A DNA stretch of 30,566 nucleotides from an uncultured Candidatus Poseidoniales archaeon (GTDB taxonomy: Archaea; Thermoplasmatota; Poseidoniia; Poseidoniales; CAYMED01), in assembly GCA_964389655.1 (NCBI GenBank), contig CAYMED010000020.1, positions 1 to 30,566 of the forward strand. Reading direction: 5' to 3'. Positions 3,352-11,520 of this stretch are shown one piece after another; position 1 is the first letter of the stretch, and every line of letters begins with the position of its first letter. The translations under genes and the position numbers were made by a program. Below the pieces are notes generated by a model. That model worked only from the letters and a program-made list of their open reading frames with translations, had not been told where the DNA came from and did not search any database.

Positions 3352-3482
3352 AGATTAACCCTGATGTGTTGTTGTGATATATGAGCCTGCGTCACCGAAT
3401 TGGCATATGTGCTTTTTTCGTGGCGTTTTGTCACACTCGGCTGCGCGTGAACCTTTAATCCGGTCCATGCTTCGTCGTGTCA
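3352..3482. promoter_or_regulatory. Divergent promoter region
   Basis: TATA-like TTTAAT (+, 3454-3459) lies 29 nt before ATG3483. TCATATAT (-, 3377-3384) lies about 30 nt before GTG3351. Confidence 0.5.
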
Positions 3483-6400
3483 ATGCGTGGGGTATTTGGG
3501 CGAGTATCTCTCGTGGCCTTGGTCCTGTTGCTAGGGCCGATTGCCCTTCCCTTATGCGGTGCAGAAGTTGGCAATACGGCCGGCCGAGCCCAAATTGACA
3601 TCAATGTATCTGGGTTGAGTGTTGGCAATACAACCATGCCATTGGAGATGTGGGAACAACCCGATAGCACGGTACAAGGTTACGCAGTCCGCGGAGTGCC
3701 TTATGAGGTTCAGATAATCATCTCTCAAGATGGAACATCGGTCGCACCAGTTGATGTCAACGTTTCCATTGAGATCATCCACCCTGTTGGTGAAGTGACT
3801 CAAGAATTCTGGGTCAATTTTTCTTCAGTCCGTGATGGCCAAACGAGGCAGGGGTCAGTCAATTGGATCCCCGAAGCGGCACATAGCATTCTTTCAGCAA
3901 CTGGGAAATTGAGTGGAGGGTGGCTGCTGCGAGCAACGGCTACTGCAGATGGTGAAAATGTGGGTGAATTGGCCGACAACGTCCGTGAAGTTACGACTCC
4001 TGTTGCAATTGGGCATGATGTCATGGAAGATTGGTCCGGTGGTCAAATCTCTTTAGGTGATACCATCCATTATGGTACTGGCCGCGATACCAGCGGTCAA
4101 ACAATTGATGCAGGTGAATGGGTCGCCGATACATCTCAGGCCAAATCAGGGAGTTCCTCATTCCGGCATTCGCCTAGTTCTACAGCAAACTATGGCAGTA
4201 ACGCGAATGATTATTTGACATTTGGTTGGTTTTCATCGAGTTGCAGCAGTGAAATGCATCCTATTTGGGGTCAAGGAAGTTATGTATTGAATGCAGGTAA
4301 TGCTGAGTTGTGTAAGTTATGGCTGGATAGTGGCCATTTTGTCGAACTTCATCTAGCAAGTTGGGTCAAAGGTACGATGATGCCAGGTGATGAAACTGGG
4401 TTCTATGCAGAATCAAATGGGTTACAGGCGCACCTAAATTTTACAGATTCTAGCATGGGCATCACCGACTCTGATTGGACCCGCGTTGTTTGGGATTTGA
4501 GTAATGTCCTCACAAACCGTCAATATGAGCTTGGATTTCACTTCAGATCAGACTCCATAGGATCAACACCAGGGATGGTTGTTGATGATTGGGCTGTGTT
4601 TGGAATTGAGAAGGTTGACGCATACACTGTCGATTTGCAGTGTGATGGTCCTAGCTCAGGGTGGGATGCGCGCCCAGGTGATCTATTCAAGGTAGAATGC
4701 ACTGTCCGAAATGATGGATATGAAGTCAAAGACCTATTTTTGAGCAGTCAAGTCGGAGGTTCTAGTCTCAACCCTATTGCATCAGTCTGGAATGGAATGA
4801 TTCGTATCGATACGAATCGCACCATGAATACTGCATCAACGATTTATTTGGAAGATATTCAGCCAGGCGAAGTTGTTGCATTCAATTCTACTTTGACAGT
4901 TCCAGCAGGTGCTCCCGTTCAATCTCTCAGTTGGGGTATTTGGGTGAATGACAGCATTGATCATTACTTGACAAAAGGATTGAGCCTTTATCCTCTCTAT
5001 ATTCAAGCCTTTTATGGTGCACGAATCACGTATGCAGATGCGAAAGTAGATGCCGATGCGACAGTGCTTCCTGGAACGAAATTCACTCGTTCGTATATTC
5101 TGAAGAATATTGGCAATGCCGATGGTACGTTCAACGTCATCGGCCAGTTCTCAAATGCGACTTGGCTGGCGAAAGGTGGCTCAATTACTTTTGAAAGAGA
5201 AAACGGAACCCCTCTCGGTGATGTTGACTTAACAATCCAGCAATCGATTCTTTTTGTTGCAAATGTAACGATGCCCACCCTTGCCCTTCCTGGTGACCAC
5301 AAATTCACTCTGTACGCGACTGCAAAAGGGGCGGGCGTTACGGCTGACCCTGCCTCTCTTTCTGTATCGCTGCAAGTATTGTCTGCTTGGATTGAGGCAG
5401 GGCAGTGGTCGAATGTGAACCCGCGGGCAAGCTTCAATTTATTCGCAGGTGAACCAACAACGCATACCGTTCTAGCAGATGGTAATCCCGTTTCCGTTCA
5501 GTATGAGGTCTCAAACACTGGAAATTATCATGATCGCTTTGACTTGACAGTTCTTGCATATGACCATACCGTTGCTGTAGCCGAATCTTTGCCCTCGGTT
5601 GATGTAAGTGTGAATCCACTTCGAACTCCTTGGCTTGCTCCAGGTGAATCGCAGCGAGTAACTCTGACCTTTGTCCCACATAAAACACTGGATCCTCGAA
5701 CCTACTCAATTCAGTTGACAGCAACTCCTCTCACAGTCGTTGCGGGCCTCCAGCGAAGCGCATCAATGGACCACTTCATTAATGTGGAAACGACTCAAAT
5801 CATTTCCGTCGAAGCACCAGATCTTTCAGATGAGAGTTACTATCCCGGTCAGCAAGGTGAATATCGGTCATTCATCATCCGCAACGATGGAAATATACCC
5901 GATGATATTGATCTTACACTTGTTTCTGGTAGTGGAGTAACCGTCAAAATTGACTCTCCCTCATCTGGCCGGCTGTCACTATCGCCGGGACAATCTGATG
6001 AAGTAGTTCTAAGAATTGATGTTGCAAATGATGCTGAAGGTACAATTGATATTTCCCTGTCTGCGGCCAGTGCCTCTGATGTATCAGTCACTTCTGGTGC
6101 GATTGCCACCTTAAGAGTAGGAAATGAGGCGCGTTTGATTGTCGTAACACCTCCTGTTGATCGTCCCATATCTGGGCCGGAAGTTTGGATGGATCTCGTC
6201 TTTACAATTGCCAGTACGCATAGCAATAATTTGTCTCTGCAATTCAAATCATCGATTGATGACCCTCGTTTGGAATTTGAGACTCACCCTGATCACCGAG
6301 ACCCTGGGAAGCATGTTCTGCCAGCAGGCGATGCAATGCTGCATACGCTTCGTGTCCGCATTCGCACTTCGACATGGAATAACCTTCCATCCACCGAGCA

Positions 6401-6869
6401 GATTGCAACTGTAAATCTCGTTGTCGTATCTGAAGTAGGCTCGGATAGTCAGCAAGTGAAATTGTACTTTTCTGGTTCAGCGCCGGGCGCCCAATCAACT
6501 GGCTTATCTGGTGAAGAGAATGAGGAACCTTCCCAAATCGCATCTCTGATCATTACCGTGCTCAAATATATCGCAATGGTTGCCGTACTCGTGGCATTAT
6601 TAGTCATTCTAGTTCGAATTTTGCGTGGTGTAGAGCGTGAAGATGATGACTCACCTTCTTGGTCCGAAGATGAAGGTTACTCTGGAGCTGTGCCTACGTC
6701 ATATGGCGTCACTGCCGCTCCAGCAATCCCGGCAGCGCCCGTTGTATCTGCTCCTGCAAAAAGTAGTGAAAAAGGGCCACCTCCATTACCCGCTTCTGGG
6801 CTCCCAGATGGATGGACAACAGAGCAATGGCAGCATTATGGATGGCAATGGCTTGAATCTAATCCCTGA
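3483..6869 (+). CDS. Large single-pass cell-surface protein with tandem Ig-like (CARDB/NEW3/COG1470-type) domains
   Basis: Signal peptide MRGVFGRVSLVALVLLLGPIALPLCGA. Repeated xxNxGNxxD strands (VRNDGYEVKD, LKNIGNADGTF, VSNTGNYHDRF, IRNDGNIPDDI). C-terminal TM and a cytoplasmic tail ending GLPDGWTTEQWQHYGWQWL. Confidence 0.85.
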   Translation: MRGVFGRVSLVALVLLLGPIALPLCGAEVGNTAGRAQIDINVSGLSVGNTTMPLEMWEQPDSTVQGYAVRGVPYEVQIIISQDGTSVAPVDVNVSIEIIHPVGEVTQEFWVNFSSVRDGQTRQGSVNWIPEAAHSILSATGKLSGGWLLRATATADGENVGELADNVREVTTPVAIGHDVMEDWSGGQISLGDTIHYGTGRDTSGQTIDAGEWVADTSQAKSGSSSFRHSPSSTANYGSNANDYLTFGWFSSSCSSEMHPIWGQGSYVLNAGNAELCKLWLDSGHFVELHLASWVKGTMMPGDETGFYAESNGLQAHLNFTDSSMGITDSDWTRVVWDLSNVLTNRQYELGFHFRSDSIGSTPGMVVDDWAVFGIEKVDAYTVDLQCDGPSSGWDARPGDLFKVECTVRNDGYEVKDLFLSSQVGGSSLNPIASVWNGMIRIDTNRTMNTASTIYLEDIQPGEVVAFNSTLTVPAGAPVQSLSWGIWVNDSIDHYLTKGLSLYPLYIQAFYGARITYADAKVDADATVLPGTKFTRSYILKNIGNADGTFNVIGQFSNATWLAKGGSITFERENGTPLGDVDLTIQQSILFVANVTMPTLALPGDHKFTLYATAKGAGVTADPASLSVSLQVLSAWIEAGQWSNVNPRASFNLFAGEPTTHTVLADGNPVSVQYEVSNTGNYHDRFDLTVLAYDHTVAVAESLPSVDVSVNPLRTPWLAPGESQRVTLTFVPHKTLDPRTYSIQLTATPLTVVAGLQRSASMDHFINVETTQIISVEAPDLSDESYYPGQQGEYRSFIIRNDGNIPDDIDLTLVSGSGVTVKIDSPSSGRLSLSPGQSDEVVLRIDVANDAEGTIDISLSAASASDVSVTSGAIATLRVGNEARLIVVTPPVDRPISGPEVWMDLVFTIASTHSNNLSLQFKSSIDDPRLEFETHPDHRDPGKHVLPAGDAMLHTLRVRIRTSTWNNLPSTEQIATVNLVVVSEVGSDSQQVKLYFSGSAPGAQSTGLSGEENEEPSQIASLIITVLKYIAMVAVLVALLVILVRILRGVEREDDDSPSWSEDEGYSGAVPTSYGVTAAPAIPAAPVVSAPAKSSEKGPPPLPASGLPDGWTTEQWQHYGWQWLESNP

Positions 6870-8666: not shown

Positions 8667-10658
8667 ATGACGGGCATCCTCAAGGTCTGGATTGAAGAAG
8701 GGTGCATTACGTGTGATGCTTGCCAAGATGCATGCCCTGAAGTGTTTGAGGTAACTGACGATTCCTGTTTCATCAAAGGCGATGTGAGAATGGATGGGCG
8801 ATTCGACGAAAATAGGGACGCAGGATCTCATCTCAAGGGAAGTTTAGGTGCTGAATTATCCGACTTCATCGTTGATGCAGCAGAAGGCTGCCCTGTTGAG
8901 GTGATCAAGTACGACCTTATTGGTTCCTCTACTGATTCGTCGGAAGGGGTTGAAGGACCTGAAACCGATGTTGGAACAGAAATTTCTGCTGATGCGGAGA
9001 TCTCCGATGTTCCTCCCGCCTCGCCAGAGGGTGATTCTGATGCAGGAATGGATTTTTCGATGGATGGGGATCGCGCGTTGCTCATCCTATTTGGTTCTCA
9101 ATCAGGCAACGCAGAAGGCGTCTGCGCCAAGATGGGTAAACTCGCCTCTAAGTATGGGCTTGATGCTACTGTAAAAGGGATGGATGAGATCCAAATCTCT
9201 GACCTTGAAGGGCAAAAAAGAGTCTTGGTTGTCTGCAGCACATGGGGTGAAGGCGATATGCCCGACAATGCTGAGGATTTGTGGAAGGCTGCAAATGGAG
9301 TATCTATTCCGAATCTTTCTGGGACTTATTTCAGTGTCTTGGCCCTAGGGGATTCGGACTACGAGTATTTTTGTCAATCTGGGATAGACTGGGACGGCTG
9401 GTTTGAGAAACAAGGAGCCCTCCGACTTGTTCCACGAGTTGATTGTGATGTTGACTATGATTCATTAGCTGATGCTTGGATGCTAGATGCTTTGCCACAT
9501 GTTGGTGCAGTTGATGGTAGTGGAGTCTTCCAAATAGATGCGGTTGAGGTGCTGAAGTTCAAGGCATCAGGTGGGAAAACACCCACTGGTGTCGAAGTTG
9601 AGGCAGTGGGTGCGTTGCAGGGCTTTGTCATTCCTGAAATGTCCTCTGCTTCCCGCCTGGCTCTCTTCACGATTCATCGCTATGACCCCAAAGCCACATC
9701 AGTTGGTACGGATGAGATTGAGTTGGAAATAGCGGGGCATATGACTGTCTATGATGCTCTCAATCAGATTCGGAACTGGCATGATGGGTCGCTTGCTATA
9801 CCCCTAGGCTCGAATCCAGTGCTTGAGGTCAATGGAAGAGTGGTACTTGCCAATCATGTCCGTATTGATTCCCTTGTTCCTGAAGCAGGTGGATCTATCC
9901 GAGTAGATCCCGCTCCAGGTTTTCCTGTCATACGAGACCTCATCTCTGATCTAACTTCTCTTCGAAAGGCTTGGGCTAAGAGCGAACCTTGGTTTAATGC
10001 TGAAACAGGACAATCGCAATCAACCGAATCAAAGGCGCGTGTTTCGCGGCAGTCTCCGATTTGCGCCCGTCAGCAATACGAGGCCGGCTCATCTAGGTCT
10101 CGTGCTCTAGTTCATGCAGCATCCGATACAGTACCATATGCGCCAAATTTGCTCGGCCCATCGATTCATGCACATATGTGGGCGAAATTCAATGATGAAC
10201 GATTATCCCGCTCTCAACGCGAAAGAATTGTGGCTCGTTTAGCAGATCCTGTCGAAGGAGTCTTTGCGGAATGTGATTTGCATGCTCTACGAAGGCACGG
10301 GGGTGAAGCCGCCCGTGCTTCTGATGCAAATTTAAAAGCGCGTCGACACATCCTTCATCTTTCAAAATTCTCAGGCCGTTCTGGCCTTCATGTGAAGACA
10401 TTTGCGAAAACCGTTAAGGGATCCGGTTTGCTCAATGAAACCTTCCTTGCAGCCCGCACTTTGGGGCCTTTAGGCATGCTAGGGAATCTCAAAGCAACCA
10501 TGCGCATGGCAACCGGATTCACGCGAACGGGAGGCCCTTTAGCCCGCGACTTGCAAGGATATCTTGCACCAGGGAAATTGCCAAAAATCATTAATCGAAG
10601 AATCGATGGTCACCACGAAGTTGTGGCGTTGTATACCGAACTTGAGAGGAGGTTATGA
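8667..10658 (+). CDS. Fusion protein: single-cluster ferredoxin, acidic linker, flavodoxin (CysJ/diflavin-reductase type), and degenerate SdhB/FrdB-like domain
   Basis: CITCDACQDACP...EGCPVEVI; FGSQSGNAE, STWGEGDMPDNA, LGDSDYEYFC; SdhB landmarks FTIHRYDP, MTVYDALNQI, FPVIRDL and LLGPS, without the cluster cysteines. Confidence 0.85.
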   Translation: MTGILKVWIEEGCITCDACQDACPEVFEVTDDSCFIKGDVRMDGRFDENRDAGSHLKGSLGAELSDFIVDAAEGCPVEVIKYDLIGSSTDSSEGVEGPETDVGTEISADAEISDVPPASPEGDSDAGMDFSMDGDRALLILFGSQSGNAEGVCAKMGKLASKYGLDATVKGMDEIQISDLEGQKRVLVVCSTWGEGDMPDNAEDLWKAANGVSIPNLSGTYFSVLALGDSDYEYFCQSGIDWDGWFEKQGALRLVPRVDCDVDYDSLADAWMLDALPHVGAVDGSGVFQIDAVEVLKFKASGGKTPTGVEVEAVGALQGFVIPEMSSASRLALFTIHRYDPKATSVGTDEIELEIAGHMTVYDALNQIRNWHDGSLAIPLGSNPVLEVNGRVVLANHVRIDSLVPEAGGSIRVDPAPGFPVIRDLISDLTSLRKAWAKSEPWFNAETGQSQSTESKARVSRQSPICARQQYEAGSSRSRALVHAASDTVPYAPNLLGPSIHAHMWAKFNDERLSRSQRERIVARLADPVEGVFAECDLHALRRHGGEAARASDANLKARRHILHLSKFSGRSGLHVKTFAKTVKGSGLLNETFLAARTLGPLGMLGNLKATMRMATGFTRTGGPLARDLQGYLAPGKLPKIINRRIDGHHEVVALYTELERRL

Positions 10659-10659
10659 G

Positions 10660-11520
10660 ATGGCTCTGAAGTATGCTCATTATCCTGGATGTGCTGCTCA
10701 GTCTTCTGCTCGTGAAGTCATGGATGCCATGGTCGCAATTGAGCGTGTTCTAGACTTAGAGTTGGTTGAACTTACTGGTGCGTCATGTTGTGGGGCTGGC
10801 GTGATTCGCCAAGCCAATCCTGAACTTCAAATTGCTCTCAATGCCCGTACATTTGCTCAAGCAGAATCTCAGGGCCTGGATATTCTAACTCCTTGTGCTA
10901 CATGTCAAGGAAATATGTGGGAGGACCTAAACACTTTGAATGAAGATGCTGAATTGAGAGACTCAATCAATCAGGTTCTTGAACGGTCTAGTGGTTTGCA
11001 ATTCAATGGGGATGTTAGAATGCGGCATCTTCTCCACATTCTTGTCGAAGATGTTGGACTCGATACACTTCGTGAAAAAGTTGTCAATCCGCTTGATTTG
11101 CCTATTGCGGGATATTATGGAGCTCCAATGCTGCAGCGTGGTGCTTCTTGCGGTGATGACCCGTGGGACCCAACCTACCTTGAATCATTAGTTGATGCAC
11201 TTGGTGGCACCTCAATTCGAACAGATGGACGTGTCCGAAGCGTAGGATTTCCGAGCCTTATGTCTCAAGAAAAGACTGCGCTTAGGATGACTGCAGCAGT
11301 TCTTGAAGAAGCAAAAAATTCCGGTGCTTCAGTCATTGTTTCGGCTTGTCCTTTGTCGCACATTAATCTCGATAGTTATCAGGATAAGGCAGGACAAACA
11401 GTTGGCCGAGATACAGACATCCCTGTTGTTCATCTTCCCGAGATTGTTGCTTGGGCATTGGGCCAAATGCCCGACCGTTTTGCCTATCTCCGCACTCGTG
11501 CACTCATTATTGGAAATTGA
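10660..11520 (+). CDS. CCG-domain protein (HdrB/SdhE-like iron-sulfur subunit), second CCG domain degenerate
   Basis: YPGC-x31-CCG...PCATC is intact in the N-terminal half. ATG10660 follows GAGGAGG and lies 1 nt after the upstream stop, consistent with translational coupling. Confidence 0.9.
   Translation: MALKYAHYPGCAAQSSAREVMDAMVAIERVLDLELVELTGASCCGAGVIRQANPELQIALNARTFAQAESQGLDILTPCATCQGNMWEDLNTLNEDAELRDSINQVLERSSGLQFNGDVRMRHLLHILVEDVGLDTLREKVVNPLDLPIAGYYGAPMLQRGASCGDDPWDPTYLESLVDALGGTSIRTDGRVRSVGFPSLMSQEKTALRMTAAVLEEAKNSGASVIVSACPLSHINLDSYQDKAGQTVGRDTDIPVVHLPEIVAWALGQMPDRFAYLRTRALIIGN

What the first reader, a model, noticed from the sequence alone, without database searches (positions are those of the whole stretch)
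8667..11520. Candidate undescribed redox module: ferredoxin-flavodoxin-pseudo-SdhB fusion coupled to a one-cluster CCG protein
Seen: two genes 1 nt apart with an SD, bounded by the thermosome gene and convergent hef, and no flavoprotein (SdhA/HdrA) gene nearby. Known: an SdhB next to a CCG-domain subunit is the layout of the SdhE-type, non-cytochrome-b succinate dehydrogenases, and is also the layout of HdrC/HdrB. Inference: this is a repurposed copy of that pair. The SdhB Fe-S wire has been removed and two low-potential carriers (ferredoxin, flavodoxin) have been fused on. They could deliver electrons to the one remaining CCG cluster, or the pair could act as a regulatory or iron-sparing decoy of complex II. 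I do not recognise this architecture from any characterised system.
Basis: partly seen in the sequence, partly recalled or inferred. Interest (0 to 1): 0.85.

Follow-up and report, generated by a model that had tools for sequence, protein, structure and literature searches.

The report
Iron-sulfur-stripped SdhB/SdhE pair with tethered carriers
Every genome examined of the abundant ocean archaea Marine Group II carries an uncharacterised two-gene redox module, a relic of succinate dehydrogenase whose built-in iron-sulfur wire has been deleted and replaced by swappable ferredoxin or flavodoxin domains on flexible tethers.

Summary
Gene A (8667-10658) encodes a single-cluster ferredoxin, an acidic tether, a CysJ-type flavodoxin and a full-length SdhB homologue with none of its 11 Fe-S cysteines. 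Gene B (10660-11520), 1 nt downstream, is an HdrB/SdhE-fold protein. Its N-terminal CCG motif is complete and its C-terminal one is degenerate.

The pair is not an assembly artefact. The pseudo-SdhB domain is in 150 of 151 genomes of the order. B follows it in every locus examined, and the neighbourhood was syntenic in 12 of 12 long loci. It is not the cell's complex II, because a canonical anchor-sdhA-sdhB operon with intact cysteines lies on another contig. The nearest relatives are the long SdhB and the SdhE of sdhA-sdhB-sdhE operons in other Thermoplasmatota.

New here:
- The carrier region varies between genomes: Fd-Fld, Fld-Fld, Fd-Fd, Fd alone or Fld alone.
- B's five-Cys motif is clade-specific. 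Elsewhere four positions (44, 79, 163, 230) persist.
- An orphan CysJ-type FAD/NADPH module and a degenerate SdhA are also order-wide.
- Modelling supports pseudo-SdhB binding to B.

Best reading: a reductase in which tethered carriers replace the Fe-S wire. The substrate is unknown. No paper found characterises it. This scan's only earlier notes on this DNA are first-reader notes on this same stretch.

The parts
8667..10658 (+). Gene A: Fd - tether - Fld - linker - pseudo-SdhB fusion, 663 aa
   Evidence: ORF and translation; Pfam and NCBIfam; more than 1900 homologues
8667..8921 (+). Single-cluster [4Fe-4S]-type ferredoxin domain (res 1-85). Candidate ligands are C13, C16, C19 and C75.
   Evidence: Fer4_13 at 28.1 bits over the 24.5 cut-off. 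The CxxCxxC...CP pattern is kept in Fd-type orthologues.
8922..9071 (+). Acidic tether (res 86-135): 15 D+E, no K or R
   Evidence: Composition. Unalignable and of variable length among orthologues.
9072..9521 (+). CysJ-type flavodoxin (FMN) domain (res 136-285)
   Evidence: Flavodoxin_1 at 2e-28; cysJ TIGR01931 positions 60-202 at 1e-35. The FMN-loop motifs are near-invariant in 63 sequences. It is the only Flavodoxin_1 domain in the genome.
9522..9659 (+). Linker 2 (res 286-331) with conserved AVD.xG and GF..P motifs
   Evidence: Alignments A1 and A3
9660..10655 (+). Pseudo-SdhB (res 332-663): both SdhB domains plus the C-terminal extension of long type-E-like SdhBs. It has 0 of 11 Fe-S Cys and a family-specific GFTRTGG insert.
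   Evidence: The model has pLDDT 84. The top PDB hits are all SdhB/FrdB, with target-normalised TM (TMt) 0.78-0.84 among the first ten.
10644..10652 (+). Shine-Dalgarno-like GAGAGGAGG, 7 nt before the start of gene B
   Evidence: Sequence
10660..11520 (+). Gene B: HdrB/SdhE-fold CCG protein, 286 aa
   Evidence: The model has pLDDT 91 and TM 0.87-0.88 to HdrB chains. It is 38-39% identical to the SdhE of type-E operons.
10675..10917 (+). N-terminal CCG domain with the complete five-Cys motif (C11, C43, C44, C79, C82)
   Evidence: PF02754 at 3.6e-17; alignment with the SdhE outgroup
11107..11379 (+). C-terminal CCG domain, degenerate: first Cys lost, CC replaced by SV, CxxC replaced by CxxS. Only C230 is kept, in 120 of 120 sequences.

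Best explanation
A and B form a soluble or peripheral heterodimeric redox enzyme. It descends from the SdhB and SdhE subunits of a type-E (non-cytochrome-b) complex II. The hard-wired chain of three Fe-S clusters in SdhB has been deleted, so the pseudo-SdhB is now a cofactor-free, net-basic scaffold that holds B.

Electron transfer is done instead by one or two acidic one-electron carriers on flexible tethers. In this genome these are a [4Fe-4S] ferredoxin followed by a CysJ-type FMN domain. They most likely pick up electrons from NADPH through the genome's orphan CysJ-type FAD/NADPH protein, or from the 2-oxoacid:ferredoxin oxidoreductases. They would deliver them to the metal site in the cleft between B's two CCG half-domains. 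In this genome that site has a complete noncubane-cluster motif. In homologues (SdhE, HdrB) this cleft reduces a quinone or a disulfide.

Shown: homology, cofactor-ligand status, order-wide conservation, variable carrier layouts and the predicted pseudo-SdhB:B interface. Inferred: the direction of electron flow, the donor, and the substrate (quinone or disulfide).
For: Descent:
- The pseudo-SdhB aligns along its whole length with 314-348-aa SdhBs of the PRK12576/12577 type.
- B is 38-39% identical to SdhE proteins encoded next to sdhA and a long sdhB in other Thermoplasmatota. Those SdhE proteins keep both CCG motifs.
- The folds are confirmed: SdhB target-normalised TM (TMt) 0.78-0.84 among the first ten hits, HdrB TM 0.87-0.88.

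Not complex II: a canonical anchor-sdhA-sdhB operon with intact Cys motifs lies on contig 6.

Under selection: found in 150 of 151 genomes of the order and 58 of 58 high-quality ones. There are 41 invariant columns in 63 A sequences and 45 in 48 B sequences. Synteny is fixed.

Heterodimer: the complex model scores ipSAE 0.86 against a best control of 0.00. That mark was reached by 58 of 80 solved complexes and 2 of 110 mismatched pairs. The runs share at least 78% of their contacts, and the partner's pLDDT is at least 89. The interface places A's motifs that replace the clusters (D487, T536, D537) against B's former CCG sites. HdrB-HdrC complexes are solved, so the pass may partly reflect that likeness.

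Redox role:
- The carrier cofactor-binding motifs are conserved.
- Fd and Fld modules replace each other repeatedly, with at least 9 layout changes among 39 loci. Two unlike folds that share only electron carriage would be expected to be interchangeable only if electron carriage is the function.
- B keeps positions 44 (Cys or Asp, 120/120), 79 (119/120), 163 (74/76 in the motif-lost forms) and 230 (120/120).

Donor:
- A holds the genome's only Flavodoxin_1 domain.
- A stand-alone CysJ-type FAD/NADPH module is present in 36 of 36 order genomes sampled.
- There is no CysI for it to serve.
- Two OFOR genes are present.
Against: - No cofactor has been measured.
- The complex model did not place the flavodoxin confidently against B or anything else, so the last electron-transfer step is unsupported.
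- B's noncubane-cluster motif is incomplete in about two thirds of lineages, so HdrB-type chemistry cannot be the family's constant mechanism unless a remodelled site replaces it.
- Neither protein has a transmembrane segment, and no SdhF-like partner is adjacent, so quinone access is unproven.
- The FAD/NADPH module also occurs in two sister-family genomes that lack both a flavodoxin and B, so it is not tied exclusively to this module.
- Some genomes have no flavodoxin domain at all, being Fd-Fd or Fd only.
Confidence: 0.45

Rival explanations
1. Three-subunit 'shadow complex II'. The order-specific degenerate SdhA (contig 22) is the third subunit. Its FAD site, rebuilt for a substrate other than succinate or fumarate, is the catalytic centre. 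The tethered Fd/Fld carriers exchange electrons with that FAD in place of the lost Fe-S chain. B is a structural or membrane-docking remnant.
For: - An SdhA-like protein of 536 aa keeps the dinucleotide-binding motif. It lacks the covalent-FAD His, the Thr-Glu pair, the catalytic Arg and both substrate-binding His/Arg motifs.
- It is found in 36 of 36 order genomes at E 1e-60 to 1e-79. Outside the order only ordinary SdhAs match, at E 2e-34 or weaker, and 0 of 2 sister-family genomes have it.
- It has no SdhB gene of its own.
- All three subunits of the ancestral operon type would then have decayed together.
- The conserved loops of the pseudo-SdhB N-domain (RYDP, DGSLTFRDG) are not used in the B interface.
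Against: - It is not linked to A/B on the chromosome. It sits in its own operon behind a family-less membrane protein.
- Co-occurrence is uninformative, because every core gene of the order shows the same pattern.
- Its origin is unresolved: 24-26% identity to both type-E and canonical SdhAs.
- If it docks as SdhA does, the pseudo-SdhB would cover the FAD edge and hinder access by a carrier.
Confidence: 0.2
2. Non-catalytic scaffold or regulator. The pseudo-SdhB/B core is a dead pseudoenzyme. It parks or localises the cell's Fd/Fld carriers, or acts as a decoy or iron-sparing regulator of complex II.
For: All classical catalytic cofactors of SdhB are gone, and most of SdhE's as well. A carries the only flavodoxin domain in the genome, so it could be the general carrier pool.
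Against: - B keeps four potential ligand positions nearly universally and 45 invariant columns. That is more than a passive anchor would need.
- These are small genomes (1.2-2.2 Mb) that keep the pair everywhere.
- Nothing links it to the canonical sdh operon.
Confidence: 0.12
3. Alternative iron-free SdhB isoform that plugs into the canonical SdhA and anchor under iron limitation.
For: The SdhB fold is retained. The open-ocean habitat is iron-poor (general knowledge).
Against: - Without any cluster there is no path from FAD to quinone.
- The partner encoded next to it is an SdhE-type protein, whereas the canonical operon uses a different membrane subunit.
- Its SdhB-model scores are far below the cut-offs.
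Confidence: 0.03

Closest known systems
Type-E (non-cytochrome-b) succinate:quinone oxidoreductase / methylmenaquinol:fumarate reductase, subunits SdhB (long form) and SdhE (SdhC of Sulfolobales)
   Same: The gene order is SdhB then SdhE. The pseudo-SdhB includes the C-terminal extension typical of long SdhBs. B is 38-39% identical to the SdhE of such operons in the same phylum. The predicted interface runs between the SdhB C-domain and the CCG protein.
   Different: There is no adjacent SdhA, 0 of 11 Fe-S ligands in the SdhB part, and the second CCG motif is lost. Fd and Fld domains are fused on. All curated model scores are far below their cut-offs.
HdrB/HdrC of heterodisulfide reductase (for example PDB 5ODC, 8RVY)
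   Same: B has the HdrB fold (TM 0.87-0.88, about 30% identity) and one complete noncubane-cluster motif. It pairs with a subunit derived from a ferredoxin-like protein.
   Different: The partner has no clusters, there is no HdrA, and the organism is an aerobic heterotroph. The second cluster site is degenerate. The TIGR03288 score is 158 against a cut-off of 345.
Thiol:fumarate reductase TfrB (SdhB-HdrB fusion)
   Same: It combines an SdhB-like and an HdrB-like module in one electron-transfer unit (weak NCBIfam hits).
   Different: Here there are two genes, no clusters in the SdhB part and no TfrA neighbour.
Diflavin reductases (CysJ, CPR) and split Fpr/flavodoxin systems
   Same: The FMN domain is of CysJ type. 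A CysJ-type FAD/NADPH module is encoded separately. A mobile FMN domain on a tether is how these enzymes work.
   Different: The FMN domain is fused to a pseudo-SdhB rather than to its FAD partner. There is no CysI in the genome. In some genomes the flavodoxin is replaced by a ferredoxin.
Helicobacter pylori uncharacterised protein, PDB 3KWL (DUF5644 family)
   Same: It is the only solved chain hit by both the B model (E 8e-10) and the pseudo-SdhB model (E 7e-6). ESM Atlas places DUF5644/HdrB-like_C clusters next to the pseudo-SdhB.
   Different: No detectable sequence similarity, bacterial, one polypeptide, no carrier domains. Its function is also unknown.

Membership tests
SdhB/FrdB iron-sulfur subunit of complex II | N-terminal plant-ferredoxin-like domain (Fer2_3) | tested here: met
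   PF13085 at 32.6 bits against a cut-off of 27. Foldseek top hits are all SdhB/FrdB.
SdhB/FrdB iron-sulfur subunit of complex II | Eleven Cys ligands for [2Fe-2S], [4Fe-4S] and [3Fe-4S] | tested here: not met
   All three motifs are replaced in the alignment with real SdhBs, and in all family members.
SdhB/FrdB iron-sulfur subunit of complex II | Score above the curated family cut-off | tested here: not met
   Best scores are 55.8 against 228 (PRK05950) and 55.1 against 344 (PRK12576).
SdhB/FrdB iron-sulfur subunit of complex II | Encoded with, and bound to, an SdhA flavoprotein | tested here: not met
   No SdhA in the syntenic neighbourhood in 12 of 12 loci. Binding to the orphan degenerate SdhA was not tested.
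HdrB/SdhE CCG-domain proteins | Two-domain HdrB fold | tested here: met
   TM 0.87-0.88 and rmsd 2.2-2.4 A to 8rvy_B and 5odc_B
HdrB/SdhE CCG-domain proteins | N-terminal Cx(n)CCGx(m)CxxC motif | tested here: met
   C11, C43, C44, C79 and C82 are present here, but in only 44 of 120 family sequences.
HdrB/SdhE CCG-domain proteins | C-terminal CCG motif (second noncubane cluster) | tested here: not met
   CC is replaced by SV in 120 of 120 sequences and CxxC by CxxS. Only C230 is kept.
HdrB/SdhE CCG-domain proteins | Score above the curated cut-off for HdrB or MFR SdhE | tested here: not met
   157.6 against 345 (TIGR03288); 152.2 against 500 (NF042965)
Flavodoxin / diflavin-reductase FMN domain | Flavodoxin_1 domain with FMN-binding loops | tested here: met
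   99.7 bits against a cut-off of 25. The GSQSGN, STWGEG and LGDxxYE loops are near-invariant. FMN binding itself was not measured.
Flavodoxin / diflavin-reductase FMN domain | Covalently linked FAD/NADPH domain (CysJ, CPR) | tested here: not met
   The FAD/NADPH module is a separate gene on contig 1.
Single-cluster [4Fe-4S] ferredoxin (Fer4_13) | CxxCxxC...CP ligand set and domain match | tested here: met
   28.1 bits against 24.5. C13, C16, C19 and C75 are conserved in Fd-type orthologues.
Type-E complex II as a whole | Succinate or fumarate turnover by an SdhA with catalytic His/Arg residues | tested here: not met
   The only unpaired SdhA-like gene lacks those residues. The genome's functional-looking SdhA sits in another operon.

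The most novel reading that the evidence does not exclude
Marine Group II archaea keep a complete 'shadow complex II': a degenerate SdhA, a carrier-fused pseudo-SdhB and a remodelled SdhE. In it a hard-wired Fe-S chain has been replaced by tethered, interchangeable Fd/Fld cassettes. The cassette choice (Fd or Fld) and the stepwise loss of Fe-S ligands would be iron-adaptive alleles that are exchanged between species. That would be a new wiring principle for a respiratory-type enzyme, and a natural iron-economy polymorphism in a core gene.
Probability: 0.2. Interest if true: 0.85.

Novelty: new variant of a known kind. Interest (0 to 1): 0.7.

Why it matters
Marine Group II archaea are among the most abundant archaea of the surface ocean and remain uncultured. 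Their published metabolic reconstructions list complex I, complex II and an oxidase (PMC6336850). This module appears only as automatic labels, 'SDH cytochrome b subunit' and 'sulfite reductase flavoprotein', noted for its fixed position (PMC6741140).

A universally kept, unassigned redox enzyme is a gap in those models. It could be the missing route by which low-potential electrons from OFOR or NADPH are used. Mechanistically it would show that an intramolecular Fe-S wire can be swapped for tethered mobile carriers.

The repeated exchange of Fd and Fld, and the graded loss of Fe-S ligands, give a directly testable case of protein-level iron economy. Cassette type can be read from metagenomes and compared with measured dissolved iron.

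Tried and rejected
Synteny was taken from the genome search and the fetch from genomes instead.
- Literature searches found no functional study. Terms tried: Marine Group II or Poseidoniales with flavodoxin, succinate dehydrogenase or heterodisulfide reductase; DUF5644; 3KWL. One search failed on syntax.
- A search for longer fused forms (a Rosetta-stone partner) found none. This is weak evidence.
- No RNA holder was listed among public runs, so expression and co-transcription could not be examined.
- In the DNA contigs, the Fld to pseudo-SdhB junction (about 9589-9652) is bridged only by the probable source run. That junction rests on homologues instead.
- The complex model gave no confident contact for the flavodoxin domain, so docking of FMN onto B is neither supported nor excluded.
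- An assimilatory sulfite reductase role was rejected, because there is no NIR_SIR gene in a 93% complete genome.
- A role as an input module for a complex I lacking NuoEFG was rejected, because NuoF is present.
- The origin of the degenerate SdhA could not be resolved by identity: 24-26% to both candidate ancestors.
- The quick gene tree grouped all B sequences with the full motif together, which needs 1 change. The deep branch has only 21% support, and a tree with family f2 held together is better by 37 log-likelihood units (p-AU 0.82). One loss cannot therefore be told from two parallel losses or a transfer.
Full report
**What is in the window.** Gene A runs from 8667 to 10658 on the + strand and encodes 663 aa. 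Gene B starts 1 nt after A's stop (10660-11520, 286 aa) and is preceded by GAGAGGAGG. Upstream lies a thermosome gene (Cpn60_TCP1, E 7e-184). Downstream and convergent lies Hef, with DEAD/Helicase_C, ERCC4 and HhH domains.

Pfam finds three domains in A:
- Fer4_13 at residues 10-81 (28.1 bits, cut-off 24.5).
- Flavodoxin_1 at 140-264 (E 2e-28).
- Fer2_3, the SdhB N-domain, at 334-432 (32.6 bits, cut-off 27).

NCBIfam places the flavodoxin closest to the FMN domain of CysJ (TIGR01931 positions 60-202, E 1e-35). It matches residues 332 to about 600 to several SdhB models at about 1e-15, far below their cut-offs. B matches the CCG domain (E 3.6e-17) and, over its whole length, HdrB (TIGR03288, E 4e-46) and the SdhE anchor of methylmenaquinol:fumarate reductase (E 2e-44). 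Both are again below their cut-offs.

**The SdhB half is a true homologue with no ligands.** A phmmer scan of 1.84 billion representatives found only 15 at E 1e-30 or better (22 at 1e-10 or better). The listed family members have lengths fitting the different layouts. After them come ordinary SdhBs of 314-348 aa at E 1e-10 and weaker. Those are PRK12576/PRK12577-type long SdhBs.

In the joint alignment, homology runs from the N-terminal strand to the C-terminal extension. The [2Fe-2S] loop and both CxxCxxCxxxC(P) motifs are replaced. A family-specific insert (GFTRTGG...) appears near the C-terminus. The AlphaFold model (pLDDT 84) hits only SdhB/FrdB chains at the top (E about 1e-13, target-normalised TM (TMt) 0.78-0.84 among the first ten). 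None of the 11 ligand positions is Cys in any of 63 aligned family members, yet 41 columns are invariant.

**B is an SdhE/HdrB-fold protein.** Its model (pLDDT 91) superposes on HdrB chains with TM 0.87-0.88 at about 30% identity. Its nearest relatives outside the order are closer still, at 38-39% identity. These are CCG proteins encoded directly after sdhA and a long sdhB in three other Thermoplasmatota genomes, which is the layout of type-E complex II.

Those outgroup SdhE proteins carry both complete CCG motifs. B here keeps the N-terminal one (C11, C43, C44, C79, C82). In the C-terminal one, the first Cys is lost, CC reads SV and CxxC reads CxxS. Only C230 remains.

**It is real, universal in the order and confined to it.**
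- The pseudo-SdhB domain was found in 150 of 151 sampled genomes of the order (58 of 58 high-quality, 22 of 22 genera). It was typically a single hit per genome.
- In 165 genomes from the rest of the phylum, only ordinary SdhBs matched, at E 2e-11 or weaker.
- B lies immediately downstream in all 28 and 44 loci examined.
- The whole stretch is syntenic in 12 of 12 long loci: large surface protein, thermosome, A, B, Hef, ribosomal protein operon.
- A published survey of Marine Group II contigs noticed the same fixed order under automatic names, without analysis (PMC6741140).
- Contigs from a second study bridge the Fd-Fld and A-B junctions at 99% identity or more.

**It is not the cell's complex II.** Contig 6 carries a membrane subunit, a 607-aa SdhA and a 249-aa SdhB whose three Cys motifs are intact.

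**The carrier region is modular.** Most database members are about 725 aa and carry two flavodoxin domains in tandem. The window's form has a ferredoxin in the first position. A census of 44 loci from 22 genera found five layouts:
- Fd-Fld, the commonest.
- Fld-Fld.
- Fd-Fd, in the other genome of the window's own genus.
- Fd alone.
- Fld alone.

Sequences of lengths that would fit the three rarer layouts also occur in the representative library. On a tree of the constant parts, the layout changes at least 9 times among 39 loci, including within five genera. Pairwise DNA comparison shows that the replaced segment is flanked by homologous sequence on both sides. The ferredoxin's CxxCxxC...CP ligands and the flavodoxin's FMN loops are conserved wherever the domains occur. 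The carriers and tethers are acidic, and the pseudo-SdhB is net basic. Two unlike folds that share only the ability to carry one electron at low potential are interchangeable here. That is the strongest argument that the module's job is electron transfer.

**B's cluster site is remodelled, not constant.** The five-Cys motif is complete in 44 of 120 database sequences and in 9 of 22 genera, spread over all three families of the order. Elsewhere it reads N-S-C-C-T or N-S-D-C-(S/A). A tree with family f2 held together is not rejected and is in fact better (p-AU 0.82). The motif was therefore lost at least twice or moved between families.

Four positions persist:

| Position | Residue | Count |
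|---|---|---|
| 44 | Cys (83) or Asp (37) | 120 of 120 |
| 79 | Cys | 119 of 120 |
| 230 | Cys | 120 of 120 |
| 163, motif-lost forms | Cys | 74 of 76 |
| 163, full-motif forms | Cys | 24 of 44 |

I read this as a possible four-ligand site spanning the two half-domains, which would take over when the noncubane motif goes. This is an inference, because no coordinates were available to measure distances. Fld-Fld layouts were seen only with motif-lost B: 8 of 25 loci against 0 of 14. The genomes are related, so this is a pattern and not a statistical test.

**Predicted heterodimer.** For A residues 130-663 with B, the model supports binding:
- ipSAE is 0.86 against a best control of 0.00.
- That mark was reached by 58 of 80 solved complexes and 2 of 110 mismatched pairs.
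- The runs share at least 78% of their contacts, and the partner's pLDDT is at least 89.

The interface uses only the pseudo-SdhB (389-391, 412, 487-663). It puts A's residues that replace the cluster motifs (D487, T536, D537) against B's SVGxP (192-199) and CCGAG (39-56) regions. HdrB-HdrC complexes are solved, so part of this pass may reflect likeness to them. The flavodoxin was not placed with confidence.

**Possible partners elsewhere in the genome.**
- A holds the only Flavodoxin_1 domain in the genome.
- Contig 1 encodes a 415-aa stand-alone CysJ-type FAD/NADPH module (E 4.5e-115 to PRK06214; cysJ positions 338-597). It is present in 36 of 36 order genomes and 2 of 2 sister-family genomes, and in none of the other 162 phylum genomes sampled. 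The sister-family genomes lack both a flavodoxin and B.
- No sulfite reductase haemoprotein is present. NuoF is present, and so are two OFOR alpha subunits.
- Contig 22 encodes an order-specific SdhA-like protein. It has lost the covalent-FAD His, the Thr-Glu pair, the catalytic Arg and both substrate-binding motifs. It always lies behind a family-less membrane protein.

This scan's first-stage notes had flagged both orphan flavoproteins. I found them independently and checked them myself.

**Interpretation.** The most economical reading is a heterodimeric reductase descended from the SdhB/SdhE part of a type-E complex II. The internal Fe-S chain has been replaced by tethered mobile carriers, which bring electrons from NADPH (through the orphan FAD module) or from OFOR to the metal site in B's cleft. 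In this genome that site should be a noncubane [4Fe-4S] cluster. By analogy with SdhE and HdrB, the acceptor would be a quinone or a disulfide.

I put this at 0.45. The main rival, at 0.2, is a three-subunit shadow complex II built around the degenerate SdhA. A non-catalytic scaffold or decoy (0.12) and an iron-free SdhB isoform for the canonical enzyme (0.03) fit the conservation pattern less well. The substrate, the direction of flow and the cofactor content are untested.

**Novelty.** No paper in the searched library characterises this architecture. The only solved protein that resembles both halves, H. pylori 3KWL (DUF5644), is itself of unknown function. I class the module as a new variant of a known kind, the SdhB/SdhE and HdrB/C modules, with an unusual wiring solution and a natural Fd/Fld cassette polymorphism.

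Noticed in passing
own genome, contig 22: 4493-6106 (-) (locus L048): Order-specific degenerate SdhA-like flavoprotein. It lacks the covalent-FAD His and all dicarboxylate-binding and catalytic residues. It is found in 36 of 36 order genomes and always lies downstream of a family-less membrane protein of 410-470 aa.
   Followed up: partly
own genome, contig 1: 91233-92480 (+) (locus L047): Stand-alone CysJ-type FAD/NADPH module without an FMN domain, in a genome with no CysI. It is present throughout the order and in two sister-family genomes that have no flavodoxin.
   Followed up: partly
own genome, contig 6: 83652-84518 (-) (in locus L050): The 287-aa membrane protein encoded directly upstream of canonical sdhA-sdhB has no Pfam or NCBIfam match. 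It may be an undescribed type of complex II anchor.
   Followed up: no
proteins P0004 and P0005; loci L059 and L060, L066 and L067: Pairs with closely similar Fld-pseudo-SdhB and B parts but a different N-terminal module (Fd or Fld). At DNA level the exchanged segment is flanked by homologous sequence. This suggests cassette replacement by recombination.
   Followed up: partly
loci L083 (G210:C45), L084 (G296:C130), L085 (G173:C11): Intact type-E sdhA-sdhB(long)-sdhE operons in other Thermoplasmatota. These are the likely ancestral form of the window's pair.
   Followed up: partly
own genome, contig 9: 13872-14423 (+), in a 1339-aa open frame (locus L005): The only other CCG domains in the genome sit in a very long open frame. 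I did not examine it.
   Followed up: no
window 3477-6869 (+): A 1130-aa putative surface protein with a signal-like N-terminus and a C-terminal hydrophobic segment. It holds the same position in all 12 long loci but is only about 26% identical between them.
   Followed up: no
B model against PDB: After HdrB, LutA and EtfD, the B model draws many Asp/Glu racemase hits with high probability but low TM. B's two invariant Cys (79 and 230) sit one in each half-domain, as the catalytic Cys pair of racemases does.
   Followed up: no
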